A stretch of 64,000 nucleotides of DNA from Naegleria gruberi (GCA_000004985.1 GG738924.1), one strand, 5' to 3'. Positions 29,073 to 54,347 are shown, counted from the stretch's first letter. Notes: generated from the letters alone by a model not told the origin. Program-made: numbers and translations.

Positions 29073-30137
29073 ATGACAAGACACATTGTTTGTTGTCTCT
29101 TAATTTTGACATTGTCATCATTTATTCTGTGTGGTAAACCTTCCCTACCAACAAGTGTCACTGATTCTCTTCAACCATGTTCACATTCTTCCAAAAATGG
29201 TGATTTCTGCACTTTACCACTTTTATCAGCAAATCCAACACAAATTCCAGTTGGTTTGGGTGAAATTTACTGTAAAATTCAAAAATTAGAAAATGAATAT
29301 TCCTCCGAAAAGAAATTAATTGAAAAATATTTATATAAAAATCCAGTGCCAGTTGTCAAGGGACCTTTGACAGATGGCAGTGGATTGGGATTATATGTGG
29401 TAGATCATCATCATTTGATTGTTTCCATGTATTCAGCTAGTTTTGATAAGACTGATTTTCCAACTTTTCATTCTGCCAAAAATAGATATGTCATTGCTCA
29501 AGTTGTCAATGACGTTTCTAATAATTTTACATCTGCTAATGAAGCTTTTTGGAATAGTATGTTTGGTAAGGGATATGCCTATCCAAAGGATGAATATGGT
29601 AAAAATTTGACAACTGGCATGTTTATTCAACAATTGCCACGTGACATTTTGTCAATGAGAAATGATCCTTACAGAGCTCTCTCATATTATGACAGATCTT
29701 ATGGTGGATATGGAAAAACTGACACTTCCATCTATTTTGTTGATTTTGTTTGGGGAAATTTCTTGAGAGAATTTGGTGGACCTGACATGTCAGCTCATTT
29801 ACAACCATTTATTGGAATTCAAGTTAAAAATGCACCTGTCACCAAGTCATCAGTCACTCCAAGTGGTGCCAAGACCAATTCCTATACCATGAAGGAAGAA
29901 TTCAAAGTTCAAAAGTCATTAATTGGAGCTGCAGTTGCAATCTCAAAATCTTCAGCTGCCAAAGGATTGCCAGGTTACATGCAAGGAACAGTTGATCCTC
30001 CATATTGTTTGGCAAGTTATCAAGTTGTTTCTTCATCAACAACTAGTGGTGGTAGTAGTACTGGAGATGCAAGTGAGAAGAAGAAGAAGATTATTTTATT
30101 GTCTGATAATTTGGAAGATGAGGAATATGATGAATAA
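29073..30137 (+). CDS. Hypothetical secreted protein (signal peptide, Ser-rich and acidic C-terminus)
   Basis: 354-aa ORF with ATG at 29073, an N-terminal signal peptide and a C-terminal DEEYDE tail. No confident domain call. Confidence 0.5.
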   Translation: MTRHIVCCLLILTLSSFILCGKPSLPTSVTDSLQPCSHSSKNGDFCTLPLLSANPTQIPVGLGEIYCKIQKLENEYSSEKKLIEKYLYKNPVPVVKGPLTDGSGLGLYVVDHHHLIVSMYSASFDKTDFPTFHSAKNRYVIAQVVNDVSNNFTSANEAFWNSMFGKGYAYPKDEYGKNLTTGMFIQQLPRDILSMRNDPYRALSYYDRSYGGYGKTDTSIYFVDFVWGNFLREFGGPDMSAHLQPFIGIQVKNAPVTKSSVTPSGAKTNSYTMKEEFKVQKSLIGAAVAISKSSAAKGLPGYMQGTVDPPYCLASYQVVSSSTTSGGSSTGDASEKKKKIILLSDNLEDEEYDE

Positions 30138-31862: not shown

Positions 31863-34800
31863 TTACAAATCTTCATCATCTTCCTCATCGTCATCATCAA
31901 ATTCTTCATCACTGGCATCATTATCAGTTGTTCCAGTCATTGTAAAGTTTTCCATATCCGCATCGAACAATGTTAACATGGCATCTTCTTCCTCCAAGAT
32001 TGCCTCTGGTGAAATAAATGATTGTCCAAAGCTGGCTGTACTGTTTTGTCTGGAAAGCATCTTACTGGTATCATCAGAACATGAAGAAATTGTGCTGGAA
32101 AGTGGAGAAGTTGGTGGTAAATCGGTTCCCAATTGTTGTTTCTCCAATTGTTGTTGCTTTTCCAATTGTTTTTTGAGTTTCTTTTCCTTCTTTTTCTTTT
32201 CTCTCTTGTGTTTCTTGATGGTTGCTGCAAGACTCTTGTTTCTGATATTTCTACCCATTTTCAAGTCATTGTAGAGAGTTGCTGACATGTCGACTCTTTC
32301 GGCAGCTTCCTTGCCCATGCAGGAAATGACATGTTTCCAAACAGGATCTTCTTCTGGAATAACTGGAATGCTGTTAATGTTCTTTCGAATATAATCATTG
32401 AAACCTTTCATCATACCCTTGGCACGATCCATTCTCAACAAGTTGATGGCAAATCTGGCATTTCCACCAACATCCAACAAGTGAATTTGAGTAATATTAG
32501 TTCTATAAGAGTCAAGTTTCTTAATGGAATAGTATTGGAAATCTCTGATATCAATGAGCTTCTTTCCTTCATTGACGCCCTTGCCATCCATGTAAAATCT
32601 TTCGTGTTCGCATGGTTTGTAGAGGAGTGTTAATTTTTCTTCATTCTTATCATAGTAAGCTGTACAAACACTCAAGAAACTTCTCTTTGTTGTGAATGGG
32701 AATGGGAAACCAACTCCGTATCTGATAACACCACATGACCTAGGACCTCTCTTGAATTTCTCATTTGGATACATCTTTTTCAAAGTTTCAAAATCATAGA
32801 ATGATAATTCTTCACAGGAGGTAATATTTGGATCGTATTTGTGAACTTGCAATCCTGGCATGCAACATTTCTTGACAGCGTCAAAAGGAAATGGTAAAAT
32901 ACCTGTCCACTTGTTAATTTGCATTTTCTGATAGAATCCAACGTTAGGGAAGAGTACCTTTTCTGATAATTTATATACATTGATAGCTCCTTCCTTCTTG
33001 GATCCCAATAATTTCCATTGATAATCATCTCTTGCCAAGTATTCCATAAATTCAATGTCCCTGTCAAAGACAAATGGTAATTTAAAGTCTTCATCTCCGT
33101 ATGGATAGTAAGTGGCTTCCTTGAGACGTCCAACTTTGGTCAAATAACTCAAACCTTTGTGTTGTAATTTCTTAAACCACACATCACTTCTCACAAACCT
33201 AGGGAAACTGTCATTTTCCAATTCATACATGACAGAATTCTTCATTGTACGGAACAACAAGTGTGGAGGTTGTGGCAACAACCATTCATCAAATTCCTGA
33301 TATTGTTTTGATTCTTGGAAGAGTCCAACAAAGGTACGTTTGTCACGAGAGGAAATGTTAATTTCCTTCTTTGAATCTTCCTCAATAAAATCTTTCATAA
33401 TTTGAATTGCTAACATGATTTGCTTTCTGTAAACTTTGAGAACTTGATCATATTTGGAACGTGGAGTATTTGGTGGAAGTGTAAGGAATGCGTGTTGGAG
33501 AGATCTTGGTCTATCTCCAGATGTTCTTGATGAGCTACCTGAAATATCAGAACGTTCAGAAGTTGGATCATCCTCAGGTGATGCAACTCCATTCCTCAAT
33601 TCTTCCTTCTTCTTTTCCTTCTTTTCAGTGAGAACTGTCAAGAGACTCTTCATGCCATTGTCTTCTTGTCCACTATTACTTGAAGCACCAACTGGGGTAC
33701 TATCTTCACTTTCACCACTTTCACTCTTTTCAACGAGTCCCAAGTTTAATTTTGGTAATGCTCTTGGAGTTGGTGTGGTAAGAGAAATACCAGGTTCTCC
33801 TACAGTACCAGAAGTGCCATTTGTTGCATGTTCATTGGTGAAGTGTTCAGTTGTTTTGATTGTGACCACCTCAGCATCAGTTTCAGTTGCCTTTACAGTT
33901 GGCACATCCTTCAAAATCATGTCCATCAAGGTGGTTTCTTTCTTTTCAGATGGAGAGGTTGGATTTGAATGTGGAGTATTGACATTACTATTTGTATTGC
34001 TATTTGGATTGCTTGCAGTTGCATTTTGATCCTTCTTCTTTTTCAAAATGGAAAGTCTCAAACTAAATCTATTAGACTTTTCAGATTCGTCATCTTCTGC
34101 ATCATTGGTAGTTGGAGTACTATTAGTTTGTGGTGTATTTGCTTTAGTTTCATCCACCTTTGGCTTTTTACCCAATCCAAAGAATGATAATTGTTTCTTG
34201 GCTGCTTTTCTTGGTGTAGTTGGTTCAGATTCAGATTTGGATGGTGATTTAGTCTTATCATTTTGAGTCATCATGAGCATCATCTTTGGTAAATCAGAGA
34301 ATGGAGTTTTAAAATGTGAAAAAGTGGCTGATGAGCCAGATCCAGAATTTGACAAGGAAGATGCAGCAGAACCACCTTCAAGAGCCAAATTAGCATTAGC
34401 AGTTTGAATATCCTTGACCATTTTCATCATTTTGTAATAGGTAAATTCCAATTCATTCACTCGAGTAATAAATTCCAAAGGTTCTGTATTGTGTTCAGTT
34501 TCCAAATATCTGTAAAAGGCACGAAACATGGTTCTATCTGTGAAAATTCCCTGGAATGAGAATAAATAATCTTCCAAATTGGTTTCAACGAATAATTGTT
34601 GTTGAGATGGCAACTTGCCAGTTTTTGAAATGTGTGAAGAGGAGGCAACAGTTGACAATCCTCTCTCTGCAGAACCTGATGATTTCTTAGTTGGCAGTGA
34701 AAAGATCATTGGTGTTTCCTTATATCTCTTTTCATCTGCATCTATTTTAGTTTCAATGGTTGGTGTAGCTTGACCATCTTCACTACCATTTTGTGCTCCT

Positions 34801-35165
34801 GCTGATGTTGTTGTCGATGATGATGTTGAATTGTTTTTATCATGTGAAGAATTGGTTCTGAAACGATTGAAAAGTTTGGAAGCAAATGAAGATGTGTGAG
34901 TTTTCTGAGTTGGAGTGGATGTAGTAGTATTTGGAGTTGAGGAGGTTTTGGTATTGCTATTCTTTCCATTAGATGTAGATGTGGTGATGGTGTTATTATT
35001 GGAAGTAGATGTGGAAATGTTGGTATGTTCGTCTTCATCATCCTCTTCTTCCTCTTCGACTGCTCCCAGGGCTTCTATATTCACTCCATATAATGTATTA
35101 TTATTATTATTATTAGCAGTATTATTATTATCATTATTATTGGTTGGATGTGGTGGAGGTTTCAT
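31863..35165 (-). CDS. Large RGS-domain / START-domain signalling protein with long low-complexity (N/S/T-rich) linkers
   Basis: 1100-aa ORF with ATG at 35165. It has an RGS N-terminal half (FQGIFTDRTMFRAFYRYLETEHNTEPLEFITRVNELEF) and an RGS C-terminal half (QVLKVYRKQIMLAIQIMKDFIEE..NDSFPRFVRSDVWFKKL), followed by a START-like domain (DYQWKLLGSKKEGAINVYKLSE..IDIRDFQYYSIKKLDSYRTNITQIHLLDVGGNARFAINLL). It is a paralogue of the RGS/START portions of the genes at 18551 and 54348. Confidence 0.75.
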   Translation of the reverse strand: MKPPPHPTNNNDNNNTANNNNNNTLYGVNIEALGAVEEEEEDDEDEHTNISTSTSNNNTITTSTSNGKNSNTKTSSTPNTTTSTPTQKTHTSSFASKLFNRFRTNSSHDKNNSTSSSTTTSAGAQNGSEDGQATPTIETKIDADEKRYKETPMIFSLPTKKSSGSAERGLSTVASSSHISKTGKLPSQQQLFVETNLEDYLFSFQGIFTDRTMFRAFYRYLETEHNTEPLEFITRVNELEFTYYKMMKMVKDIQTANANLALEGGSAASSLSNSGSGSSATFSHFKTPFSDLPKMMLMMTQNDKTKSPSKSESEPTTPRKAAKKQLSFFGLGKKPKVDETKANTPQTNSTPTTNDAEDDESEKSNRFSLRLSILKKKKDQNATASNPNSNTNSNVNTPHSNPTSPSEKKETTLMDMILKDVPTVKATETDAEVVTIKTTEHFTNEHATNGTSGTVGEPGISLTTPTPRALPKLNLGLVEKSESGESEDSTPVGASSNSGQEDNGMKSLLTVLTEKKEKKKEELRNGVASPEDDPTSERSDISGSSSRTSGDRPRSLQHAFLTLPPNTPRSKYDQVLKVYRKQIMLAIQIMKDFIEEDSKKEINISSRDKRTFVGLFQESKQYQEFDEWLLPQPPHLLFRTMKNSVMYELENDSFPRFVRSDVWFKKLQHKGLSYLTKVGRLKEATYYPYGDEDFKLPFVFDRDIEFMEYLARDDYQWKLLGSKKEGAINVYKLSEKVLFPNVGFYQKMQINKWTGILPFPFDAVKKCCMPGLQVHKYDPNITSCEELSFYDFETLKKMYPNEKFKRGPRSCGVIRYGVGFPFPFTTKRSFLSVCTAYYDKNEEKLTLLYKPCEHERFYMDGKGVNEGKKLIDIRDFQYYSIKKLDSYRTNITQIHLLDVGGNARFAINLLRMDRAKGMMKGFNDYIRKNINSIPVIPEEDPVWKHVISCMGKEAAERVDMSATLYNDLKMGRNIRNKSLAATIKKHKREKKKKEKKLKKQLEKQQQLEKQQLGTDLPPTSPLSSTISSCSDDTSKMLSRQNSTASFGQSFISPEAILEEEDAMLTLFDADMENFTMTGTTDNDASDEEFDDDDEEDDEDL

Positions 35166-38643: not shown

Positions 38644-41600
38644 ATGGATATTAATTCATCTACCAAGGAGGAAACACCTTCAAATGGTGATGGTACAAAG
38701 GATAAACCTAATTGTGCTGATGATAATTCTTCTAACAAGGAAGAAGAAACTATTCGAAATGATACGAAACGAAATTCTTCTTCGTCTACAAAACCAATAA
38801 TTATTCATCAAGATGGAGAATCTAATACACCACCAACAATTGAAAAATCAAATTCTCCTCCTACTACAATAACACATAGTCAATCTTCACCTAATATTTT
38901 CTATCCGAAAGGAAATCAACAAGTTTCTAATAATTTTCGTCATCATCAACAGATAGTTTTCAATACACCATCAACAACAACAATATTTGATGCTTCCCAT
39001 CCGTCTAATTCTATCGAATTAAAAGAAGTTTCGAATAGTAATACTACCGTTGCAATTCCCCTTCATCAAACAAATCAAACTAATCAAACTAATGTCCAAT
39101 CGACAAGAAATGGAAAATATTCATCTCTTGCCGATAATTCCTTCTCCTCTACTAACATGCCTTCACCAAATCATTCAACAACTGTCAGTCCAAATAATAC
39201 GAAAGGTGAGACTAAACAAACTCTCAGACATCGAGCATTTTCGAATGTAAAATTGATTTCACCTAGAAAGAGACTGAAACAATCTCCTTCCACTTCTAGT
39301 TTTCAAACTTCTTCTGATTCTTGGGATGTAAAAGAAAATCGTAAAGAATTGGAACAATTATTCGATTTTAAAAGAAGAGGTTATTCGAAAGGAGGCACCA
39401 AAGATTGTTGCTTTAATTTCTGGACAGCTATTTATAATACACTTTGTCCAGTGAATAGAATTTCGAACATTTTACTCTTCATTGTAATTATTCATACATT
39501 AGTTTGTATTATTGCAACTTCAGTGATTTTATATTCTGCGTAAGTTGATTTTCTATTAGAATGTTTTTGGAATTAATTTCAATTCATTGAACTGTCATCA
39601 TGTATCATACTTTATTTTTGGATTAATTTTCAATATTCTAATTTCTTTTAAAAGTGGAGAACAAAGTGTTCAAGAAATAACTCGACTCAATAATATGAAT
39701 CTAGTTCAAGAAATGGTTCAATTTTTGGATGTTGCAACCAAATCGAGTACAGAATTATCCATGCTCTTTTCAGTTCAATCGAAATATTACAATGATACGA
39801 AAGGAAATGGAAGTTTTGTCGAGCCAATCACTCGATTCTCAACAGTTGTTGCTCCAAAATTGTATACCTATTCAAACTCCTTGTCTATGGTTTATTATGG
39901 AAATGATAATGGTGATTTTGCATTTGCTGAGAGGTCTAGCACTGGTCCATATTTGTACCTTTCTCAGAACATTTTTCAGGATCAATTTAGTGAACTGTTC
40001 AAGAATAAGACATTCCCTGCTTCGAATAATATTTATGTGTTTCTTACGAATGATTATTTTGAGCCCTATCTTCAAAAGAGTAATACAGTATTTAGGATTT
40101 TGTACAATTCAACATATGATCCGAGAGTGAGACCGTGGTACACTGCCACTGAATCATTGGAAAAGGGAAAACCAGTTTGGAGTAATGTATTTGTGGATGT
40201 GAATGGAAATTTAAGTATTGCTGCCAGTTTAGTTTTGAATAATTTGAATAGTATCAAACCCTCCTTCAAGGAAGTGATTGGTGTTCATGTGATTTTCAAA
40301 AAAATTCAAACCTACCTGTTAGGACTCTATTCCTATACGAATAATTTGATGATTTTGATGGAGAATAATGGAAATTTACTCACTTCCAATGAAGATAGCT
40401 TTCCACTCACTTATTCCAACTTGTCGAGAGTGAACATATCCTCTTTTACCTCTGCCACTAAGTTTTCAAAGGAGGAGAAATCATTCTGGGGATTGAGCAA
40501 TGAAAAGCTAGATCTCATTGAAAAGATTTCCAATGTAATGGTTTCTAACAATTTACTAGATAAGAGATTTAATGGAACTGTTCCGTGCACTTCTGAAACT
40601 TTTCAAGCAACACAGGTTGCAGACATTCCAGATCAATTCTGTATTCTGAATCGATTTGTAGCCATCAAGCAGTATAACACATCAACTTCTTTTGTGAGTG
40701 TGAGTCGTTTGATTGATGCATGTGGCATGGATTTCTATTTTATAGTGAGCAGAACGTATTACTCATTCGCTGATGTATTGGTTGACCATTATGTTGGTCT
40801 ATTGGTTGTTCTTGTAGTTACTGTTTTGATTGGTACACTGGCTGTACTGGCTCTCACATCATGCATCTCTTATTCACTCTTCTTTGTCTCTAGAAAATTG
40901 TATTACATTTCCAAGTTAAGACAAGGGGACAAACCAAAGCAAAGTTTAGCTTACAAGGCACAACGAGCCATCAATATGATATTCTATGAGGTTCACACTT
41001 TACAAAAATGTTTGGATAGTGTAGAAAGAGCCAACTCGAGTTTTATCAAGTACATTCCAAGAAGTGTTGTCAAGTTTATTGTGGAAGGTTCATCAAGTGC
41101 CAAACTAGGAATGATTAACGCTGAAATTACAATAGTATTTACAGATTTAGCCAATTTTACAAATATCAGTGAGTCATTGTCAATTCACAATTTGCTTTTA
41201 GTTATTTCCAGATATTTTGAAGTTGTCACGTCAAATGTTCAAGAATGTGGAGGAATAATTGACAAATATATTGGAGACGGTTGCATGGCATTGTTCAATA
41301 CTCCCTATCAACCAGTCACTCATCATGCAGAACATGCTTGTAAGGCTGCAATCAAAATTGTCAAGGGATTGAAAAAACTAAACAAGGAAATGGAAGAAAT
41401 TTACAAGATGAAACTTCCAACAGAAATTAGTGCACGAGTTGGTGTTAATACTGGCAGCGCACTGATTGGAAATATTGGAACTCATGATAGATTGAACTTT
41501 ACTGCTGTTGGCGATTGTGTAAATGTTTCAAGTCGTTTGGAATCTCTCAATAGAATGTATGGAACTAAAATATTGATTGGTGAAGGAAGTGTTTCCACCT

Positions 41601-42577
41601 TCAAAGGAATTGACAAGCTCAGAGGAGAAACAAAGGACCATTTTTCAACCATGCTCGATCAAAGAGAATTTTCTCTCTCTGATCTCTCACAAAAAATGAT
41701 GAATTTGGTAGAATTTCAAGTAGCCACTCCAAAGACACACGAGAGTGTCGCTGCTCAGGCATCTGCTGATTTGGGAAAGGAAATGAGCTTTAGCTCTTCT
41801 TCCAATAATTTGAAAGCCACATCAACTTCATCCTCTCAGGACACTTCTCTGCCGCAAGTTGTGACCTACTTTATCGATACCATTTGCTTGAAAGGTAAAA
41901 ATCAACCTGTTCCAGTATTTGCAGTTCAATGTGATAGAAAATTAGCGACATCTGAACAAATTTACATTGAAAAAATGTTGGATCTGGTTCGTAGAGAGCT
42001 ATTGGAAGAGAAACGATTGAAAGATGTCATTCATTTATTGCGGAGTTTGATGCTTTTCTTTGAGGAGAATCAATTGACCGATTCACCAGTATTTAGAGAA
42101 CACAACACTGATCATTATGAGTTTAAATTTGGAGAGGAAATTCATACACCTATTTCTAGCATCAATGGAGAAAAGACCGAGGAGGAAATTTCTACCAATG
42201 TTGAAGGAGATCCCTATCCAGTCATTTACAAGGCCATTTCGAAACTAAAGGAAAGATTGGAACTTACCTTAATGGAACACGAAGCCAAGAAGAGAAAAGT
42301 CCAAATCAACAAGAAACGTAGTTTACTAACAGCACTCTCTATTGATACTCGATCCAAATCTGATCCACTCATTCATCCAATACTTCCAATTATTCCAGAT
42401 TTTTCAACAACTTCACTTTTGGAAGAAAACAACAATATTGAAACTGTGGAGAACTCTGAATCAACACCAACCATGGCCAAATATGAATATTATCGACAAA
42501 TGGCCTTGATGGAAAATGAAAATAGAAGAAGCTCAATGAAATTGGACGATTTTGCTTTGGTATTGCATGAGAAATAA
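38644..42577 (+). CDS. Receptor-type class III nucleotidyl (adenylyl/guanylyl) cyclase. It has an N-terminal S/T-rich region, a TM segment, a ~400-aa extracytoplasmic sensor-like domain, a second TM segment, a CYCc catalytic domain and a C-terminal extension. Exon1 is 38644..39539, the intron 39540..39654 (GTAAGT..AAAAG, 115 nt) and exon2 39655..42577.
   Basis: Splicing joins ..TSVILYSA to GEQSVQEITRL.. in frame. The cyclase core matches class III enzymes (ITIVFTDLANFTNISE..GGIIDKYIGDGCMALFN..ARVGVNTGSALIGNIGTHDRLNFTAVGDCVNVSSRLES). TM helices are LLFIVIIHTLVCIIATSVILY and LLVVLVVTVLIGTLAVLALTSCISYSLFF. The track splits the gene into 38641..39543 and 39587..42577. Confidence 0.82.
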
Positions 42578-42669: not shown

Positions 42670-44145
42670 ATGTCCCTCAAACTCCAAGTCTATGAAGATG
42701 TGGCTGAACAACAACAACAACAATGGCCTGATGTTTCCCTCCGTAAGCAACTCTCCCAATCCGACCCCAAATGGTTCATCAAGCCTTCTAATTATTCTCA
42801 CTTGGCAGAGTTGGAGATTTATCCAAGAGTTTTCCTTGGTTCTCAGTGGGAAGCAAAGGATCCAGACTGGTTTCAAACTCACAGAATTTCCCATGTTTTG
42901 AATGTGAGTACGCTGCAGAATACCTTCCAGAAGAAGCCTTTGTATTATAGTAATTTATCAACAAATTCCTCATCGGATCCAGAGAATACAAATCCAAATA
43001 TTATGATGATGAATAGTATGAGTAGTGGTGGTAGTCATAGTGTAAATAAGAATACAACATTGAGTGGTAAACAACAGGTACATGTAAATTATTTAAAGAT
43101 TAATGTTGATGATTCGACGGATGTGAATGTGAGAAAGTACTTTGAAAAGGTGATTGATTTTGTGAGGGATGCTTTGGAAGGATCCCCAACAAGTAATGTT
43201 TTAATTCATTGGTATGTTTTGTTGTTGTTTGATGATGAAGTTAATAATAATATTATTGTTGTTATTTGTTATATTGATGATGTTTGAAATAGTAAGGAAG
43301 GTAAATCTAGATCAGTGACCATGATGTTAGTGTTCGGAATGGCTTACTTTGATTTATCACTCTATGAAGCATATAAACACTTTGAAAATAAGACTTTTAA
43401 CAGATCGAGAATTAATTTGGGATTTCAATTACAATTGATGAATTATGAAGTGGAATTGTTGGAGGCAAAAGGTGTGGAAAAACCAAAGAATTCGCTGGAT
43501 TTCCTTAATCAAGCAGCAGTTAATAGTTGTCGTAGTAATGTTACACAACCTCAACCAATTCAAATCACAACAACAGAAGAACAATCAAAGAGACCTCGAA
43601 GAAATACCAAAAAGACACCACTCTCGGATATTACTAATACTGGAGCCACTACTTTACAGCCACCACCATCAAAAGCAAAGAAATCTACTGTTAAGGTACT
43701 TCCAAAGAAGACAAAGAATGCAACAACACCTATTCCACAAATAATTCCACCAATAATTAATATTGAAGAAGATATTCCTGAAATACCCTCAATTGTTGAG
43801 AATAGTAGCATCTCAATAGATCAACAACAAGAAAACCAACCTGTTACACCTTTGAGAAGTCCAATAAGATCGAGAAGATCGAGTCGTAAAACACCTTCTT
43901 CTATCATTAAGATTCCATTCTCAACACTGGACAATGCATCCTATGTTTCTCCAATGAAAAACAAGATGCCACCAACACCATTGGGAACTCCTTCTATCAC
44001 TAATGACATTATAATAGATGATTATTCTACATTGGAATTTAAATTTGATGAGGATGATTTGGAAATTTCTAAAGGACTCGAAGATAGAGTATTCATGACA
44101 ACTCCACTCAAAAAGAGAAAGACTGACGAAGATATTATGCAGTAA
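42670..44145 (+). CDS. Dual-specificity protein phosphatase with an S/T/P-rich C-terminal tail. Exon1 is 42670..43211, the intron 43212..43292 (GTATGT..ATAG, 81 nt) and exon2 43293..44145.
   Basis: The intron splits the catalytic-cysteine codon. Splicing gives VLIHCKEGKSRSVTMMLVFGMAY (HCxxGxxRS P-loop). The upstream DUSP-fold elements (IYPRVFLGSQWEAKD..ISHVLNVS) and the downstream AYxxL..region are present. The track shows 42670..43287 and 43315..44145. Confidence 0.85.
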
Positions 44146-47019: not shown

Positions 47020-48009
47020 TTAAAGGTTTCGAATAATTCCAAAATACTTTTCCAAAATGTCCCACAACTCTTCCTCACTTTCAATAGTACGCTCTGTCAC
47101 ATTTCCCAACTTTCTAATTGTGAATTTTCTATCAACAATCGAATATCTACCTTCAGAAGTCATTAAGGCAACCAATACTATTTTAGTTTGTCCATGATTT
47201 GGATTCGTAGTTGCATACCAAGCTCCCAATTCAGCATCTAACAATGACATGATATTATCTTCTTCAAAATGCATGATATCCCACCATTCAGACTCTGGTT
47301 TGTTTTTATATTGAAGAAACCATTTCTTTTGGACAAGTTGACCATTTTCTTCATTGACATCTTGATGATTGATATTGGCACCAGTTTTAAATCGGTAGCA
47401 ACCCCACTTGTCATGATTTAATTTCGTACTTGTAAAAATCTTTCCCAAAACCAAACGAAATACCTCGCCAGTATTTTCACTCTTTTCACAACCATTACTT
47501 AAAAGGAGCGGAGATCTTGGTTGACCACCCCATCCCAAACCATTATCAACCAGATATCTATTTCCATCTTGACAATCAACCAAGAGAGCCATGTGTGTAG
47601 TGCAACTCAATGGCAATCCACTGTCCAATTCTGGAGCTACGAAACGATTGAGAAGTTTCACGCCAACTGTCGTGACAGAAAATCCAAATTCACGTAAAGC
47701 TCTGGCCAAGAGTAAGTTTTGTTCAAAGCAAAATCCTCCACGAGATTTCAATACGAGCTTGGTAAAGATATCATTTGGATCGAGGGAAACTTTGATTGAA
47801 TCTGGGAGGGAAGAATCTGAACTAAACATGCGCATCTCTGGATAAAGAGTTGCCAAATTTTCGAATGGAATGTGAATGGCATGATTCCATGAAATGGTGT
47901 GTAATAGAGAATAAGAGTTGCCACATGTGTCAATCAATTGTTTTTCAACATTTTCACGAGAAACTAAACCAATACGGTTGAGATAACTGTCAATATCAAA
48001 TATGTCCAT
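47020..48009 (-). CDS. Arylamine N-acetyltransferase (NAT family)
   Basis: 329-aa ORF with ATG at 48009. Contains the NAT active-site region RGGFCFEQNLLLARALREFGF (catalytic Cys in RGG-x-C-F-E-x-N), the downstream His/Asp region and overall NAT length. Confidence 0.82.
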   Translation of the reverse strand: MDIFDIDSYLNRIGLVSRENVEKQLIDTCGNSYSLLHTISWNHAIHIPFENLATLYPEMRMFSSDSSLPDSIKVSLDPNDIFTKLVLKSRGGFCFEQNLLLARALREFGFSVTTVGVKLLNRFVAPELDSGLPLSCTTHMALLVDCQDGNRYLVDNGLGWGGQPRSPLLLSNGCEKSENTGEVFRLVLGKIFTSTKLNHDKWGCYRFKTGANINHQDVNEENGQLVQKKWFLQYKNKPESEWWDIMHFEEDNIMSLLDAELGAWYATTNPNHGQTKIVLVALMTSEGRYSIVDRKFTIRKLGNVTERTIESEEELWDILEKYFGIIRNL

Positions 48010-49870: not shown

Positions 49871-51757
49871 TTAATCTTGTAAGATTTTGTTGGCCTTTCT
49901 CCAATTTTCAACAATGATCCTCACTGATTTGTTACTAGATTTCAATCTTTCGAATAGATCGGTCATGTTATTGAGACATGCAACTCGAACAATGTCAAAT
50001 AATGTACTGGCTATGAGTGAATCATCATTCACACTCAGAATTTCATGTTCAATTCTCAGATAAATTTGGTCAATGTTGGCAATATTCAATTCTAATGGAG
50101 ATCCTTCTTTCAGGTAGGTTTTCAATATTTTCATTGCCACCAGTTTCTTATTCTTTCGTTTGGGGGATTTTCTGAAATTTTCAATATCTCTATATGCTAA
50201 AACATCTTCATTACAATAACTCCTTGTCGCAAAATCCAATAACAATGCAAATGTCTTCCTATTTTTCAAAAATAATTCAAGTTCTGATTGAGCATACTCA
50301 GCTTGATGATTATCATTACGAATGGCATAAATGACAGGAAGAATGACTGAAATAATTATTTCCAATAATGAATAGGTCAGTAGAGTAAATCCAAATGGAA
50401 CGAAATAATCTGTCAAGAATCTGATAATCTCAATTTGTCCACTAATTATATAAGCAAGTGATAAAGCCACTTGAATAAATACCAAAACAAAAGCTTCAGT
50501 CTTAATTGACCAAGTATCTCTATCAACAAAGAAGAGAATGATCAAAAAGCTCACTTCTATCACAATGTAGAGTGCTGCTTCTGCTCCCAGCAATATAACA
50601 GTATTTGAGGTTGTAACACATCCACTATTAAATGCAAATGGACTCACATTCCACAAGAATATTCTCTTTCCACTATTACTATACGAAAGTTCATCAATTC
50701 CTCCCAATAAAGCCCAAATAGATAAGTGAATAATGAATGAAATTGTATAAGTGATTGCAATAAACTTGTAGCTCACCAAATATGAAAATATTTTGAACTT
50801 TTTGTCAGAGAAAATTGCAGAAGTGTTGTCAATGTCAGAAGAAGTGACCCACGTTTTTTGATCTTGTTCATCATGGACATCTTCTCCAGTTTCTGGAGTA
50901 ACCCGTGTTGTTGTAATCTGTTCTGAAGTTTGTGATGCATCGTTTGGATTTTCTTGTGATATATTTGAAATGGTACTCGAGTTATCAAATGTTTTTGGTG
51001 TCAATAATTCTGGTTGACTTGTCTCTGATAATTCCGTAGAAGATCCATGTTGTATAGATGCTAATGGAAGAATGGTAATACCTTTCAATTTGTCATCCTC
51101 TTGAACTTGTTGATCCACATTTTGTTCCTTTTTCACATTGGTCAATTGTTGTGGTTTTTCACTTTTCGTCTGAAACATTTGTGCCTTCTTCTTATTGAGT
51201 AAATACATGAAATAAATCCTCAAACATCGAAATACAGTTGGCAGACACAAACTAGGAATAATGATGAAAAACGAAAAAGTGTACAAGAAACATGGAAATA
51301 TTTTCCTCGAAATTGTAAATCGTAGACATGTAATGACCACAAAAGCCAAACTAGCTGATATTGTCAGTAGCATGTAAACTGGATTCCTAGCTTTGATGTG
51401 TCCACTCTTTCTCTTCCAAATAACTCCAACAGTTCCAAAAAGTGCCAACGTCAAATAGAGTGTCAAGAAGATGGATGCGATGATTGGTGTAAAGATGCTG
51501 TCTGGGCAAATATTATTTACCACTGTTGCATTGTATCCTTCACGACTCAAGTCTCCTAGATTGAACAATCTTTCGTCACATATTGAATAATTTGTTGTTG
51601 AGGTATTGTTGTTGGAAAGTTGTTGTTGTTGAATAGAATAAATTGTTGTTGCTATTGGATAACGATAATGAAAAGATTCTTGAATAAATGATGAAAGAAG
51701 GGTAAATATTCGAAATTGGGTTTCATTATTTTGACCTGCATGATGCAGCTGGTACAT
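49871..51757 (-). CDS. Seven-transmembrane receptor fused to a C-terminal RGS domain (7TM-RGS, AtRGS1-like architecture), copy 1 of a tandem pair
   Basis: 628-aa ORF with ATG at 51757. It has an N-terminal Cys-containing ectodomain (SICDERLFNLGDLSREGYNATVVNNICPDS), seven hydrophobic helices with a long Ser-rich third loop and a C-terminal RGS domain (KNRKTFALLLDFATRSYCNEDVLAYRDIENFRK..ILKTYLKEGSPLELNIANID..LFDIVRVACLNNMTDLFERL). Confidence 0.8.
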   Translation of the reverse strand: MYQLHHAGQNNETQFRIFTLLSSFIQESFHYRYPIATTIYSIQQQQLSNNNTSTTNYSICDERLFNLGDLSREGYNATVVNNICPDSIFTPIIASIFLTLYLTLALFGTVGVIWKRKSGHIKARNPVYMLLTISASLAFVVITCLRFTISRKIFPCFLYTFSFFIIIPSLCLPTVFRCLRIYFMYLLNKKKAQMFQTKSEKPQQLTNVKKEQNVDQQVQEDDKLKGITILPLASIQHGSSTELSETSQPELLTPKTFDNSSTISNISQENPNDASQTSEQITTTRVTPETGEDVHDEQDQKTWVTSSDIDNTSAIFSDKKFKIFSYLVSYKFIAITYTISFIIHLSIWALLGGIDELSYSNSGKRIFLWNVSPFAFNSGCVTTSNTVILLGAEAALYIVIEVSFLIILFFVDRDTWSIKTEAFVLVFIQVALSLAYIISGQIEIIRFLTDYFVPFGFTLLTYSLLEIIISVILPVIYAIRNDNHQAEYAQSELELFLKNRKTFALLLDFATRSYCNEDVLAYRDIENFRKSPKRKNKKLVAMKILKTYLKEGSPLELNIANIDQIYLRIEHEILSVNDDSLIASTLFDIVRVACLNNMTDLFERLKSSNKSVRIIVENWRKANKILQD

Positions 51758-51825: not shown

Positions 51826-53757
51826 CTACAGGTTTAAACTGTTTCTACGAAAGTTAATAACCATTTCTTGTATGTTCTTGTCTGTGGCTTTCAATCTTTC
51901 AAATACATCAACCATGTTATTTAGACAGAGAACTCTAATATCATCAAACAAGGTATTGGGAATCAGAGAAGGGTTTGTTGCTTTTTGGAGAATTGATTCA
52001 ATTTCTTCATACTTTTTGGAAAGGTTTGACATGTTGAGCTCGAGAGAAGATCCACTTTTAAGATAGGTTTTCAATATTTTCGTGGCAACCTTCTTCTTGT
52101 GCTTTTTGGAAATCTTTCTAAACTTTTCAATGTCTCTGAAGGCAAGAACATCTTCAGGGCAGTAGCATCTTCTGGAAAATTCTAAAAGTAAGGCAAATGT
52201 TTTTCTATTTTTGAGAACCGTCTCAATTTCAGTTTGGGAATATCCTCCATTCTCGGTATTTAATTGTTTTTGAAACTTTCTGTCATCAATAATTGCATAA
52301 ATTACAGGTAACAATACAGCAATAAATATTTCAAATACTGAATAGGTCAGTAGAGTAAATCCAAACGGAACGAAATAATCTGTCAAAAATCTAATCACCT
52401 CAATTTGACCACTAACTAAGAATGCAATAGCTGTTATGATTTGAATCACAATTAATACAAAGGTATCTCTTTTGATATGAAAAGCATCTCTATCAGCAAA
52501 GAATAATGGAATAAAGAATGCAATCTCGATAATAATGTAGATGGCTGCCTCTGCTGCCAACATAAAGACAGTGTTAGTGTTAGTAACACAGCCTGTAGTT
52601 GCTGCAAACATGCTGATATTCCACAAGAATACTCTTTTTCCTCCATTACTAACAACAAGTTCATCGGCTCCTCCAAATATTGCCCAAATAATAAGATGCA
52701 AAATGAAGGCAACAATATACGATGAAGCAATGAGTTTGTAACTCACCAAGAAGGAATAAACCTTAAATTTCCTATCATTATAAACTGATTCTGTATAGTC
52801 CACATCAGTTGAGGTAACCCATGAACGGGAATCATCTTCAGTGTCTGAATCTACCTCACTTTTTCGTTGTTCTGATGAAACATGACTTGATGTATTGTTG
52901 TCAGTCAATGGGGTATCGGGAATGTGTGGAATAACAACACCATTATTATTGGTAGTAGTAGTAATTTCTGGAAAGGTGAATTTTTCCACACTAAAAGGTT
53001 CAACTACATCTTGATGTTCTGTTAAAGTGGTGGGAATTAATTCAAAATTGACCACTCTACTTGATGTGAGAGCTTCCCTAGACGTCGATGGACTATTGTC
53101 TTGTTGGTGACTCTGTGAATCTCTTGCTGTTGTGATGTGAGATACCACCAATGAGAGGGAAGAATTATTGTTGAGTGCAGATGATGAAGCTGAATGTTTT
53201 GATGATTCAAAAGTCATTGCTTTTCTTATATTCAACTTGTACATGAAAAAGATACGAATGAATCGGAATACTGCTGGAAGACACATTGCAGGCACTGTGA
53301 TAAAGTATGAAATAGTGTATAAAAAGCAGGGGAATATCTTTCTTCCTATAATAAATCGCAAACAAGTTGTTACGACAAAGTACAAAGTTGCCGAGATGGT
53401 CAAAATCATATGAAGTGGATTACGAGCCTTGATGTGTCCACTGTTTCTCTTCCACAACACTCCAATAATAGCCAAAGTAACCAAACACAAATAAACAAAT
53501 AGAAAAACTGCTGAAACTATTGGAGTGAAGATACTATCTGGACAAATGTTATTGACCATCGTGGCATTATATCCTTCTCGGCTCAGTTCTCCCAATTTAA
53601 AGAGTCTCTCATCACAAATAGATGATGTTGAATTACTATTTGATGAGGTATTTGATGATGCAACCAATAAAGAAGAAATAATTGTTGGCACTTGACTGCT
53701 CACGCTACTGAAGAAATATTGCAATACTTGTTGTAGTGGAATGAGTTGTGCAACCAT
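51826..53757 (-). CDS. Seven-transmembrane receptor fused to a C-terminal RGS domain (7TM-RGS), copy 2 of a tandem pair
   Basis: The track ORF 51826..53820 starts at an alternative TTG. The first ATG is at 53757 (MVAQLIPLQQ..). Domain order and many blocks are shared with the gene at 49871..51757 (SICDERLFKLGELSREGYNATMVNNICPDSIFTP; TM helices; KNRKTFALLLEFSRRCYCPEDVLAFRDIEKFRK). Confidence 0.8.
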   Translation of the reverse strand: MVAQLIPLQQVLQYFFSSVSSQVPTIISSLLVASSNTSSNSNSTSSICDERLFKLGELSREGYNATMVNNICPDSIFTPIVSAVFLFVYLCLVTLAIIGVLWKRNSGHIKARNPLHMILTISATLYFVVTTCLRFIIGRKIFPCFLYTISYFITVPAMCLPAVFRFIRIFFMYKLNIRKAMTFESSKHSASSSALNNNSSLSLVVSHITTARDSQSHQQDNSPSTSREALTSSRVVNFELIPTTLTEHQDVVEPFSVEKFTFPEITTTTNNNGVVIPHIPDTPLTDNNTSSHVSSEQRKSEVDSDTEDDSRSWVTSTDVDYTESVYNDRKFKVYSFLVSYKLIASSYIVAFILHLIIWAIFGGADELVVSNGGKRVFLWNISMFAATTGCVTNTNTVFMLAAEAAIYIIIEIAFFIPLFFADRDAFHIKRDTFVLIVIQIITAIAFLVSGQIEVIRFLTDYFVPFGFTLLTYSVFEIFIAVLLPVIYAIIDDRKFQKQLNTENGGYSQTEIETVLKNRKTFALLLEFSRRCYCPEDVLAFRDIEKFRKISKKHKKKVATKILKTYLKSGSSLELNMSNLSKKYEEIESILQKATNPSLIPNTLFDDIRVLCLNNMVDVFERLKATDKNIQEMVINFRRNSLNL

Positions 53758-54347
53758 TTTCTTTGTTGTGATCTTCAGCAACAGTGTTGACAACTTTGAT
53801 GGGAAAGGAAACTTTTCCAAGCCTCCGAAACAAAACGGGTTGATGTTATGCCTTACATATCATCTCGACTCGATTTTTTGGTTATGAAAATTTTTTGTGA
53901 TGTGTTGATTGGTATTGTATAATCTTTTTTAGGACCAAAGCTGTAATAATAATTTTTAAAAAATATTTGAAAAAGATATTGTTAATAATAATATCGGGTT
54001 GATGTTGTTAGTGTTTGAGTGGGTTAACAAGTTGAAACACCTGAAGGAATTTCAGATCAGCACGATGAGATTATTTAAATAGTAGTGGTTTTTAAATTTT
54101 TATTGTTGGACAAGTGTTCGTTGAGGAATGACCATACTCAATTCATCAATTACACGAATAACAATTTGAATATCGCCAAACAATCACTGTGTTTTACTCT
54201 TTACTTTGTGTGCTCAACAATAAAAAGAGTACTAGCCTTGAAAGCTTGTTTAGATTCTTACTGCCTTGATGTGTAACATGTCAGCCAATCTAAGGAAGTA
54301 AACGAAATATAAAAAAATATGAAACTCGTCATCACCGTTACATCAAC

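What the first reader, a model, noticed from the sequence alone, without database searches (positions are those of the whole stretch)
38644..42577. Receptor-type nucleotidyl cyclase with a large extracytoplasmic sensor-like domain
After a 115-nt intron, the gene encodes TM1, a ~400-aa non-cytoplasmic domain, TM2 and a class III cyclase core. The topology is that of ligand-gated receptor cyclases. The ectodomain has no obvious match by eye (it may be Cache/CHASE-like). Taken with the BLUF and RGS genes, the window is rich in sensory signalling components.
Basis: partly seen in the sequence, partly recalled or inferred. Interest (0 to 1): 0.5.

Follow-up and report, generated by a model that had tools for sequence, protein, structure and literature searches.

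The report
Amoeba receptor adenylate cyclase, Cache sensor
This is a real two-exon Naegleria gruberi gene for a membrane receptor whose outside part is a very divergent bacterial-type "double Cache" ligand sensor and whose inside part is predicted from its sequence to make cAMP; this kind of protein is already known in bacteria and in Naegleria, so it is a solid but fairly ordinary find.

Summary
The window is Naegleria gruberi. ATG 38644, exon 1 (38644-39539), a 115-nt GTAAGT..AG intron (39540-39654) and exon 2 (39655-42577) encode a 1272-aa protein. Its parts, in order, are a disordered cytosolic N-terminus, TM1, a 380-aa ectodomain, TM2, a linker with a cyclase-transducer-like motif, a class III cyclase and a 217-aa tail.

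The public model (XP_002669624, 960 aa) lacks exon 1 and TM1.

The carboxylate-binding half of the amino-acid-sensor motif is kept (Y453, R458, W460). The amine-binding half is replaced (F478, H510, invariant in four species). It is therefore not a canonical amino-acid sensor, and the ligand is unknown.

The cyclase has all catalytic residues and the Lys836/Thr915 pair, which predicts an adenylate cyclase, not a guanylate cyclase.

dCache_1-cyclase fusions were already reported in bacteria and Naegleria (Upadhyay 2016). This is a new, divergent member of a known kind.

The parts
38644..39539 (+). Exon 1. It encodes aa 1-298 plus 2 nt of codon 299: a low-complexity S/T/N-rich cytosolic N-terminus followed by TM1.
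   Evidence: First ATG after an in-frame TAA. The ORF is listed. Conserved islands (ENRKELEQLF, ISPRKR, TM1) align with N. fowleri P0086, Willaertia P0026 and L001.
39466..39534 (+). TM1 (aa 275-297, NILLFIVIIHTLVCIIATSVILY), a signal-anchor helix with the N-terminus inside.
   Evidence: KD maximum 2.77. 5 K+R in the 30 aa before it against 2 after it. Nearly identical in the orthologues.
39540..39654 (+). Spliceosomal intron: 115 nt, GTAAGT...AG, phase 2 (it splits Ala299).
   Evidence: Sequence read, with an in-frame TAA right after the donor. The metagenomic orthologue L001 has a 37-nt GTAAGT..AG intron at the same codon. The N. fowleri and Willaertia annotated proteins read ..LYSA|G.. and ..LYVG|G.. 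straight through the junction.
39655..42577 (+). Exon 2. It encodes aa 299 (third base) to 1272, plus the TAA stop.
   Evidence: It is collinear with the orthologues, with no unaligned block that would suggest a further intron.
39656..40792 (+). Extracytoplasmic divergent dCache_1 (double Cache) sensor domain, aa 300-678.
40115..40141 (+). Cache signature YDPRVRPWY (aa 453-461). This is the carboxylate-binding half of the dCache_1 AA_motif (PctA Y121, R126, W128, Y129).
   Evidence: R and W are invariant in the family and in 40/40 bacterial-type relatives. Motif definition from PMC8915833.
40190..40192 (+). F478, at the position of PctA Y144 (amine-contacting Tyr).
   Evidence: Alignment: F in 4/4 family members; Y in 29/40 and F in 10/40 bacterial-type relatives.
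40286..40288 (+). H510, at the position of PctA D173 (the essential amine-binding Asp).
   Evidence: 6mni alignment: H in 4/4 family members; D in 25/40 and H in 2/40 relatives. D173A abolishes binding in PctA (PMC8915833).
40586..40642 (+). Loop in the membrane-proximal module, bounded by Cys610 and Cys628. The Cys pair is conserved across the four species in the full-length alignment and may form a disulfide.
   Evidence: Alignment. This loop is the low-confidence part of the model (ectodomain residues 310-332). The disulfide is an inference.
40796..40873 (+). TM2 (aa 680-705).
   Evidence: KD maximum 3.06. 2 K+R before it against 8 after it.
40874..41122 (+). Cytosolic linker (aa 706-788). 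It ends in a cyclase-transducer-element-like motif, SSFIKYIP (aa 760-767).
   Evidence: phmmer alignment to 6fht places FIKY on the CTE motif FGRY of Cya2 (CTE description in PMC5995499). No HAMP or other Pfam domain.
41123..41923 (+). Class III (IIIb-type) cyclase catalytic domain, aa 789-1055. Key residues: D796 and D840 (metal), K836 and T915 (adenine), N922 and R926 (transition state).
   Evidence: PF00211, E 1.1e-15. PDB hits at 1e-21 to 1e-18 to Cya2(E488K), CyaB, bPAC, OaPAC and CyaC. 35-37% identity to bacterial-type cyclases P0003 and P0004. Residue positions.
41591..41857 (+). Insertion of about 89 aa (aa 945-1033) inside the cyclase domain, before the last beta-hairpin. Its first half is conserved and its second half is low complexity.
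   Evidence: In BLAST against P0003 and P0004 the flanking blocks are 7-16 aa apart in the bacterial proteins and about 89 aa apart here. Family alignment.
41924..42574 (+). C-terminal extension (aa 1056-1272). It has two conserved helical blocks (EKMLDLVRRELLEEKRL; VEGDPYPVIYKAISKLKERL), a variable low-complexity stretch and a C-terminus L-x-L-[HT]-E-K in which the second Leu and the final Glu-Lys are invariant.
   Evidence: Alignment. No Pfam hit. The AF2 model of the cytosolic part was unusable (pLDDT 38.5). hhalign to bacterial cyclase tails was inconclusive (Prob 10%).

Best explanation
The gene encodes a single-polypeptide receptor adenylate cyclase of bacterial type. It has been kept as an intron-bearing nuclear gene in vahlkampfiid amoebae (Naegleria and Willaertia).

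Proposed mechanism:
1. The protein sits in a membrane with both ends in the cytosol.
2. A divergent dCache_1 domain faces outside, or into a lumen.
3. By analogy with bacterial dCache receptors, a small ligand binds the membrane-distal Cache module.
4. The resulting displacement travels down TM2 and the roughly 80-aa helical linker and cyclase-transducer element.
5. That changes how the two catalytic domains of a homodimer pack, and so changes the rate of ATP to cAMP conversion.

Ligand: the pocket keeps the Tyr/Arg/Trp triad that holds a carboxylate. The Tyr/Asp pair that holds an amino group is replaced by Phe/His. The ligand is therefore most likely not a standard alpha-amino acid or amine. 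A carboxylate-bearing compound is my best guess.

Shown here: gene structure, two-TM layout, dCache fold and homology, an intact catalytic set, and the Lys/Thr specificity pair.

Inferred only: surface location, dimerisation, direction of regulation and ligand class.
For: - Gene model: with orthologue support.
- Organism and locus: N. gruberi NAEGRDRAFT_82099 / XP_002669624.1.
- Topology: two hydrophobic segments and positive-inside charge bias in all four family members.
- Pocket residues: read against the AA_motif definition in PMC8915833.
- Cyclase: PF00211. K836 aligns with residue 488 of Cya2, the experimentally proven base-specificity switch (E488K turns the GC into an AC; alignment plus PMC5995499). 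T915 aligns with the Thr of bPAC and CyaB. The rule that Lys + Asp/Thr marks an AC and Glu + Cys/Ser marks a GC comes from PMC7384201.
- Precedent: dCache_1 + cyclase in bacteria (Rv2435c) and in Naegleria (PMC4822843).
Against: - Pfam's dCache_1 model does not hit the ectodomain even at E 10.
- The 40 reference sensors used for hhalign were themselves picked as hits to this query. That inflates the score in the central region, although the alignment extends well beyond it.
- The AF2 model is only moderately confident and rests on four sequences.
- No transmembrane-topology predictor, enzymatic data, expression data or ligand data were available.
- The D173-equivalent His could mean the distal pocket is not a ligand site at all.
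- The 89-aa insert and the 217-aa tail have no explained role. The attempt to model the cytosolic part failed.
Confidence: 0.8

Rival explanations
1. It is a receptor guanylate cyclase (cGMP-forming), not an adenylate cyclase.
For: Pfam PF00211 covers both activities. The best PDB hit, 6fht, is derived from the guanylate cyclase Cya2, and RhGC and ANP-receptor GCs are also hit.
Against: The base-specifying position carries Lys836. That is exactly the position where E488K converts Cya2 from a GC into an AC. The second position is Thr915, as in bPAC and CyaB. GCs have Glu and Cys/Ser at these positions (PMC7384201). Both residues are invariant in the four family members.
Confidence: 0.07
2. The ectodomain is a Cache-derived scaffold that no longer binds a small ligand. 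It would act only in dimerisation, or in sensing a physical cue such as osmolarity (as in Dictyostelium ACG or yeast Sln1) or pH through His510.
For: The essential amine-binding Asp is replaced by His and the Tyr by Phe. Upadhyay 2016 places the osmosensor Sln1 in dCache_1. The domain is about 80 aa larger than bacterial ones, with extra helices and a Cys-bounded loop.
Against: R458, W460 and Y461 are invariant, and Y453 is kept in three of four members across Naegleria and Willaertia (Trp in Willaertia), despite only 30-40% overall identity. That argues for a maintained pocket. F (10/40) and H (2/40) also occur at these positions among bacterial-type sensors.
Confidence: 0.2
3. The public 960-aa model is right. 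Under this reading exon 1 is a separate gene or non-coding, and the protein has a single TM with a cytosolic or secreted Cache-like region.
For: NCBI/UniProt model XP_002669624.1 / D2W246 starts at Met313 of my model.
Against: Without TM1 or a signal peptide the Cache domain could not reach the extracytoplasmic side. Exon 1 is a 300-codon open frame ending in a canonical GTAAGT donor in the correct phase. TM1 and the flanking motifs are conserved. Independent annotations in N. fowleri (1445 aa) and Willaertia (1380 aa) include them. L001 has an intron at the same codon.
Confidence: 0.04
4. The sequence is bacterial contamination or a very recent transfer, not a resident amoeba gene.
For: The nearest non-heterolobosean cyclase domains and all distant Cache relatives are bacterial-type. 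[quoted passage not shown]
Against: The gene has a spliceosomal intron. Its GC content (32-37%) matches the rest of the window. It has eukaryotic neighbours: a DSP phosphatase, RGS genes, a formin and PARG. It has N/S/T-rich low-complexity inserts and orthologues in N. fowleri and Willaertia magna. An ancient bacterial origin remains likely but was not tested by phylogeny.
Confidence: 0.01

Closest known systems
Naegleria gruberi dCache_1-cyclase proteins D2VLR9 and D2V3A4, and bacterial dCache_1 adenylate cyclases such as M. tuberculosis Rv2435c (Upadhyay et al. 2016, PMC4822843)
   Same: The architecture is the same: TM, dCache_1, TM, class III cyclase. The organism is also the same for the two Naegleria proteins. 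The paper already states that in Naegleria Cache occurs in a bacterial-type adenylate cyclase.
   Different: This locus (D2W246) was not among the Naegleria entries in the stored part of their table. Its Cache domain is too divergent for the Pfam model. The exhaustive ectodomain search listed no protein of the paralogues' annotated lengths (894 and 745 aa). This protein also carries a 270-aa N-terminus, an 89-aa insert in the cyclase domain and a 217-aa tail.
Bacterial-type metagenomic sensor cyclases P0003 (CHASE2 + cyclase) and P0004 (dCache_1 + cyclase)
   Same: 35-37% identity across the linker/CTE and the catalytic core. They share the DK[FY]IGD and (Y/F)T..GD..N...R motifs and the sensor-TM-cyclase order.
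   Different: The sensor of P0004 shows no detectable sequence similarity to this ectodomain. The bacterial proteins lack the insert and end about 90 aa after the KGK strand.
Synechocystis Cya2 (CHASE2-TM-CTE-guanylate cyclase; PDB 2w01, and the 6fht fusion)
   Same: It gives the best PDB match to the CTE plus catalytic core (E 1.4e-21). It has the same receptor layout and the same CTE motif position.
   Different: Cya2 has Glu at the specificity position and makes cGMP. This protein has Lys, like the engineered AC variant. The sensor is CHASE2 there and dCache_1 here.
dCache_1 chemoreceptor sensor domains (PctA/PctD/PscC of Pseudomonas, Mlp24/37 of Vibrio, Tlp1 of Campylobacter)
   Different: The output is a cyclase, not an MCP signalling domain. 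The amine-binding Tyr/Asp are replaced by Phe/His. There are about 80 extra residues.
Eukaryotic dCache_1 proteins: calcium-channel alpha2delta subunits and CACHD1 (Gumerov et al. 2022, PMC8915833)
   Different: Those proteins have a VWA domain inserted in the Cache domain and no enzymatic output. That paper says all eukaryotic dCache_1 proteins carry the VWA insertion. This one has no VWA and a bacterial-style architecture.
Receptor cyclases with periplasmic-binding-protein-type ectodomains (trypanosomatid receptor ACs, Dictyostelium ACG, metazoan natriuretic-peptide receptor GCs)
   Same: The functional logic is the same: ectodomain, TM, class III cyclase. The ANP-receptor catalytic domain is hit weakly (E 1e-5).
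   Different: The ectodomain fold is dCache, and the leading fold matches are all dCache sensors. This protein has two TMs, whereas, from general knowledge, those receptors have a signal peptide plus one TM. There is no kinase-homology domain.

Membership tests
Class III nucleotidyl cyclase (Pfam PF00211) | Significant match to the catalytic-domain profile above the curated threshold. | tested here: met
   E 1.1e-15, 58.1 bits against a cutoff of 21.9, aa 789-932. 38 PDB cyclases hit at E<=1e-3.
Class III nucleotidyl cyclase (Pfam PF00211) | Complete catalytic set on one chain, as needed for an active homodimer: two metal-binding Asp plus a transition-state Asn and Arg. | tested here: met
   D796 (FTD), D840 (IGD), N922 and R926 (VNvssR) align with the corresponding residues of CyaB, bPAC and Cya2. 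All are invariant in 4 species. Positions.
Class III nucleotidyl cyclase (Pfam PF00211) | Head-to-tail dimer and measurable cyclase activity. | not testable with these tools
   No multimer prediction or assay was available. The monomer model of the cytosolic part failed (pLDDT 38.5).
Adenylate (versus guanylate) cyclase specificity | Lys plus Asp/Thr at the two base-contacting positions (GCs have Glu plus Cys/Ser). | tested here: met
   K836 aligns with Cya2 residue 488, the E488K switch. T915 aligns with the Thr of bPAC and CyaB. The rule is quoted from PMC7384201.
Class IIIb cyclases with cyclase transducer element (CTE) | Thr instead of Asp at the second specificity position, and a short conserved helix motif (FGRY-type) directly N-terminal to the core. 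| tested here: met
   T915. SSFIKYIP aligns with NTFGRYLT of Cya2, with a Lys in place of the conserved Arg416. Invariant columns F, K, Y and P.
dCache_1 (Pfam PF02743) | Match to the Pfam dCache_1 HMM. | tested here: not met
   No Pfam family at E<=10 for aa 300-678, nor for the whole protein at E<=1.
dCache_1 (Pfam PF02743) | Homology to bona fide dCache_1 domains by more sensitive sequence methods. | tested here: met
   phmmer and hmmsearch to PDB dCache sensors 6mni and 7k5n, E 1e-4 to 6e-3. 59 HMMER hits to the Cache core, and 8/8 of those scanned carry PF02743 there. hhalign 99.6%, E 1.3e-23 over 229 columns covering both modules. Caveat: the reference set was selected through this query.
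dCache_1 (Pfam PF02743) | Fold: a long N-terminal stalk helix followed by two PAS-like alpha/beta modules. | tested here: met
dCache_1 (Pfam PF02743) | Extracytoplasmic position between two TM helices, with the output domain after the second TM. | tested here: met
   TM1 at 275-297, TM2 at 680-705, with positive-inside bias. The layout is the same in 40 bacterial-type relatives. No dedicated topology predictor was available.
dCache_1AA universal amino-acid sensor (Gumerov 2022) | AA_motif: Y121, R126, W128 (carboxyl) plus Y144, D173 (amino), in PctA numbering. | tested here: not met
   Y453, R458 and W460 are present. Y144 is replaced by F478 and D173 by H510, both invariant in 4 species. D173A abolishes binding in PctA.
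dCache_1AM amine sensor (PMC10104139) | Conserved Asp equivalent to D173; the R126 position is not conserved. | tested here: not met
   His at the Asp position and an invariant Arg at the R126 position. Motif description. The full AM_motif could not be read because the figure is not held.
CHASE / CHASE2 sensor cyclases | CHASE-family sensor domain between the TMs. | tested here: not met
Receptor cyclases with PBP/ANF-receptor ectodomain (trypanosomatid ACs, metazoan GC-A) | Periplasmic-binding-protein fold ectodomain. | tested here: not met
   No Pfam ANF_receptor or Peripla_BP hit. The leading fold matches are all dCache sensors.

The most novel reading that the evidence does not exclude
The orthogroup (Naegleria gruberi, N. 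fowleri, a metagenomic Naegleria-like species and Willaertia magna) would define a previously unrecognised ligand class of eukaryotic dCache_1 sensors. Its pocket is Y-R-W-Y / F / H. It has no VWA insertion, contrary to the generalisation that all eukaryotic dCache_1 proteins carry one. It is wired directly to cAMP synthesis. Under this reading it is a one-protein chemoreceptor by which bacterivorous or pathogenic amoebae detect a carboxylate-type cue that is not an amino acid, for example a bacterial or host metabolite. It would then be a candidate input to cAMP-controlled behaviour such as encystment, differentiation or chemotaxis.
Probability: 0.15. Interest if true: 0.5.

Novelty: new member of a known kind. 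Interest (0 to 1): 0.25.

Why it matters
- Annotation: the work corrects a truncated public gene model, which is missing 312 N-terminal residues including TM1. It also assigns a fold and a probable activity to a 'predicted protein'.
- Method: it shows that Pfam-negative ectodomains in protist receptor cyclases can be strongly diverged Cache sensors.
- Biology: Naegleria has at least 81 cyclases with almost no known ligands. This one has a conserved orthologue in the brain-eating N. fowleri. It also has a defined, testable pocket variant, with Phe/His replacing the Tyr/Asp that grip the amino group. That gives a concrete starting point for de-orphaning an amoeba cAMP receptor.
- Limit: the architecture was already described in bacteria and in Naegleria, so it does not change any general picture.

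Tried and rejected
1. Pfam and NCBIfam on the whole protein, and Pfam at E 10 on the three non-cyclase regions. Only PF00211 was found. There was nothing for the ectodomain, the N-terminus or the C-terminus.
2. The search for homologous proteins with the ectodomain alone and with the 4-sequence ectodomain alignment. Both returned no hits at all, not even the identical N. gruberi protein that the full-length query and the exhaustive HMMER search did find. I treat this as a limit of the word-index prefilter, not as biology.
4. The AlphaFold model of the cytosolic part (aa 711-1188, 4 sequences) came out at pLDDT 38.5 and was unusable. The fold of the insert and the C-terminal extension therefore remains unknown, and no fold search was run on that model.
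5. The afdb50 fold library was unavailable.
6. I tested whether the C-terminal extension is homologous to the roughly 90-aa tail of bacterial cyclases that ends ...DWDGV..(T/H)K. hhalign gave Prob 10%, E 0.003, driven mostly by the KGK strand, so the result is inconclusive.
7. N-glycosylation sequon density does not discriminate topology in this N/S/T-rich proteome: 2.4 per 100 aa in the ectodomain against 3.3 in the N-terminus. I dropped it as evidence.
8. BLASTP of the ectodomain against the dCache_1 cyclase P0004 found no similarity. There is therefore no evidence that sensor and cyclase were inherited together from that type of protein.
9. A literature search for the locus tags and accessions found no paper.
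Full report
**1. Organism and observation**

The window is AT-rich eukaryotic DNA: about 33% GC throughout, with Ns from 62644 to the end. A full-length protein search returned a 100%-identical 'predicted protein [Naegleria gruberi]' (P0001, 960 aa; XP_002669624.1, NAEGRDRAFT_82099, UniProt D2W246).

- ATG at 38644, preceded by an in-frame TAA.
- An open frame to 39539.
- A GTAAGT donor at 39540, immediately followed by an in-frame stop.
- An AG acceptor ending at 39654, so the intron is 115 nt and in phase 2.
- An open frame to the TAA at 42575-42577.

The spliced CDS is 3819 nt and encodes 1272 aa.

**2. The gene model is better than the public one**

P0001 begins at Met313 of my model (MNLVQEM...). 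It therefore lacks exon 1, and with it the first transmembrane helix. Four things argue that exon 1 belongs to the gene.

(a) The exhaustive HMMER search of the ectodomain found only three other full-length relatives. They are P0002 (a metagenomic ORF), P0025 (whose cluster contains N. fowleri XP_044560690.1, 1445 aa) and P0026 (Willaertia magna KAL9641862.1, 1380 aa).

(b) The N. fowleri and Willaertia annotated proteins contain a long low-complexity N-terminus and a helix nearly identical to TM1. It is joined to the ectodomain at exactly the same residue...ILYSA|GSQSVQE and ...VLYVG|GTTALEE.

(c) On the metagenomic contig L001, the upstream ORF ends ...IIHTLVCIIATSAILYSA, followed by GTAAGT. 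A 37-nt intron ending in AG restores the frame into GEQSVRE.

(d) A Cache ectodomain without a preceding TM helix or signal peptide could not leave the cytosol.

**3. Topology**

Kyte-Doolittle scanning finds exactly two strong hydrophobic segments in each of the four family members. In N. gruberi the 30-residue flanks hold:

| Flank | K+R count |
|---|---|
| Before TM1 | 5 |
| After TM1 | 2 |
| Before TM2 | 2 |
| After TM2 | 8 |

The relatives behave in the same way. Together with the need of the cyclase for cytosolic ATP, this gives an N-in / 380-aa loop out / C-in layout. No dedicated topology predictor was available. N-glycosylation sequon density was uninformative in this N/S/T-rich proteome.

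**4. The ectodomain**

There is no Pfam family even at E 10 and no NCBIfam hit. More sensitive evidence all points the same way.

- phmmer against PDB sequences hits two dCache sensors around the sequence STYDPRVRPWY: 6mni (tandem Cache of PscC) and 7k5n (tandem PAS/dCache of a diguanylate cyclase), at E about 5e-4. A 4-sequence family profile keeps them.
- The exhaustive search of 1.84 billion representatives gives 59 further hits, confined to ectodomain residues about 130-280. The eight I scanned all carry PF02743 dCache_1 exactly there. Their outputs are SpoIIE, HAMP, GGDEF and histidine-kinase domains, and one is an alpha2delta-like VWA protein.
- Forty of the 59 have the same TM, roughly 300-aa sensor, TM layout.
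- hhalign of the family alignment against those 40 sensors gives Prob 99.6%, E 1.3e-23, over 229 columns (query 74-369). It covers both the membrane-distal and the membrane-proximal module, up to the final strands GMDFYFIV, which align with GLDWlivV.

The reference set for hhalign was chosen through this query. That inflates the central score, but not the extension into both modules.

Structure prediction is an independent line. An AlphaFold2 model from the 4-sequence alignment reached pLDDT 72 and pTM 0.73. It shows a 40-residue stalk helix followed by two alpha/beta modules.
- Foldseek against the PDB returns only dCache sensor domains in the top 50 (prob 1.00, E 7e-7 to 8e-5).

I therefore file the ectodomain as a divergent dCache_1, while recording that the Pfam HMM test itself is not met.

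**5. Ligand pocket**

Gumerov et al. 2022 define the amino-acid-binding AA_motif of dCache_1 in PctA numbering. Y121, R126 and W128 hold the carboxyl group. Y144 and D173 hold the amino group. D173A abolishes binding (PMC8915833).

| PctA position | This protein | Family (4 species) | 40 bacterial-type relatives |
|---|---|---|---|
| Y121 | Y453 | Y in 3, W in Willaertia | Y 35 |
| R126 | R458 | invariant | R 40 |
| W128 | W460 | invariant | W 40 |
| Y129 | Y461 | invariant | Y 38 |
| Y144 | F478 | F in 4 | Y 29, F 10 |
| D173 | H510 | H in 4 | D 25, H 2 |

Amine sensors (dCache_1AM) also keep the Asp and lose the Arg (PMC10104139), which is the opposite pattern.

So the protein fails the dCache_1AA and dCache_1AM membership tests. 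A carboxylate-bearing, non-amino-acid ligand is my inference. A non-ligand role (physical cue or pH) is the main rival.

The domain is about 80 residues larger than bacterial ones. The extra residues form helices and a poorly modelled loop bounded by conserved Cys610 and Cys628, which may form a disulfide.

**6. The cyclase**

PF00211 matches aa 789-932 (E 1.1e-15). The closest solved structures, at E 1e-21 to 1e-18, are:
- the Cya2(E488K) fusion 6fht
- P. aeruginosa CyaB
- bPAC
- OaPAC
- CyaC
- Cya2 itself

.

All catalytic residues are present on the single chain: D796, D840, N922 and R926. All are invariant in the family.

Counting along the printed 6fht alignment, K836 falls on Cya2 residue 488. 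That residue's Glu-to-Lys change converts the enzyme from a guanylate into an adenylate cyclase, and the paper calls it the residue determining base specificity. T915 aligns with the Thr of bPAC and CyaB. Lys plus Asp/Thr marks ACs, and Glu plus Cys/Ser marks GCs (PMC7384201). The prediction is a cAMP-forming, class IIIb-type homodimeric cyclase.

Just upstream, SSFIKYIP aligns with the cyclase-transducer-element motif FGRY of Cya2. No HAMP domain lies between TM2 and the core.

The nearest non-heterolobosean relatives of the catalytic region are bacterial-type CHASE2- or dCache_1-cyclases at 35-37% identity. Compared with them, this family has an insert of about 89 aa before the last beta-hairpin (aa 945-1033) and a 217-aa C-terminal extension. 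The C-terminus ends L-x-L-[HT]-E-K, with the second Leu and the final Glu-Lys invariant. Attempts to model this region or to link it to bacterial cyclase tails were unsuccessful or inconclusive.

**7. Mechanism**

Shown here:
- a two-TM protein
- an outward-facing double-Cache domain
- a complete adenylate-cyclase catalytic set preceded by a CTE-like element

Inferred from bacterial dCache receptors (PMC8915833 introduction) and from CTE-containing cyclases (PMC5995499 and PMC7384201):
- ligand binding in the distal module shifts TM2
- the linker and CTE relay this to the dimeric catalytic core
- cAMP output changes

The sign of regulation, the ligand and the membrane in which the protein sits are unknown.

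**8. Comparison with what is known, and novelty**

Upadhyay et al. 2016 already report that in Naegleria the Cache domain occurs in 'a bacterial-type adenylate cyclase'. Their supplementary table lists D2VLR9 and D2V3A4 (dCache_1 + Guanylate_cyc). They also note dCache in M. tuberculosis Rv2435c. The locus studied here (D2W246) was not among the Naegleria entries in the stored part of that table. No paper mentions its identifiers.

Naegleria genomes carry at least 81 cyclases (PMC9928731). Hence this is a new, unusually divergent member of a known kind. It has an orthogroup restricted, as far as 1.84 billion representatives show, to Naegleria and Willaertia.

One small point of wider interest: it is a eukaryotic dCache_1 without the VWA insertion. 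Gumerov et al. describe that insertion as universal in eukaryotic dCache_1 proteins.

**9. Context**

The BLUF ORF and four RGS-domain ORFs are real. So are ordinary housekeeping genes:
- PARG
- an SNF2 helicase
- a formin
- a P-type ATPase
- a TRAPP component
- RanBP1

In a eukaryote with this signalling repertoire, the co-occurrence implies no functional unit.

**Verdict**

- The ectodomain is identified as a divergent dCache_1.
- The enzyme is predicted to be an adenylate cyclase.
- Interest is modest (0.25), because the architecture is already described.

Noticed in passing
window 39695 (Met313) versus 38644: The public N. gruberi protein model (XP_002669624.1 / D2W246, 960 aa) starts at an internal Met in exon 2. 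It omits exon 1 (312 residues, including TM1). The orthologue models in N. fowleri and Willaertia include this region.
   Followed up: yes
L001 2421-2457: The metagenomic orthologue (ENA ERZ27315067 k141_690915) has an intron at exactly the same codon, but it is only 37 nt long (GTAAGT...AG). That is unusually short for a spliceosomal intron.
   Followed up: partly
window 42560-42574 (aa 1268-1272), and the C-termini of P0002, P0086, P0026: All four family members end in L-x-L-[HT]-E-K (VLHEK, KLTEK, KLTEK, ILHEK), although the preceding ~100-residue tail is hypervariable. Bacterial relatives end ...DWDGV..M/L.(T/H)K. A relationship, or a sorting/ligand motif, is possible, but hhalign was inconclusive (Prob 10%).
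   Followed up: partly
window 18809-20683 (+): A 624-aa ORF has a BLUF domain at aa 464-557 (PF04940, E 5e-25), but no cyclase domain in the same ORF. The next ORF downstream is a P-type cation ATPase. The ~460 N-terminal residues have no Pfam hit. This may be a BLUF protein with an unknown partner domain, or further exons.
   Followed up: no
window 49871-51757 (-), 51826-53820 (-), 54348-55889 (+); also 31863-35165 (-): Three adjacent large ORFs each carry a weak RGS domain hit (E 9e-6 to 4e-4), which looks like a local tandem cluster. A fourth RGS ORF (1100 aa, E 2.5e-8) lies upstream of the cyclase. Seven-TM RGS proteins are described in N. fowleri (PMC9283941, title seen).
   Followed up: no
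window 47020-48009 (-): An ORF with a strong arylamine N-acetyltransferase domain (PF00797, E 2e-37).
   Followed up: no
window 29073-30137 (+): An ORF with a ParB-like nuclease domain (PF08857 ParBc_2, E 4e-34).
   Followed up: no
window 58553-61315 (-): A 920-aa ORF with a weak DDE_3 transposase-type hit (E 6e-5, below the Pfam cutoff). It may be a transposon-derived gene near the scaffold end. The window is N from 62644 to 64000.
   Followed up: no
window 42670-43287 and 43315-44145 (+): Immediately downstream of the cyclase gene there is a dual-specificity phosphatase (DSPc, E 6.5e-8). It appears to be split by a short intron: GT at about 43213, and the frame resumes near 43290-43315.
   Followed up: no
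tool behaviour: The word-indexed protein search returned no hits for the ectodomain alone or for its 4-sequence alignment. The identical N. gruberi protein is in the database and was found with the longer query and by the exhaustive search.
   Followed up: partly
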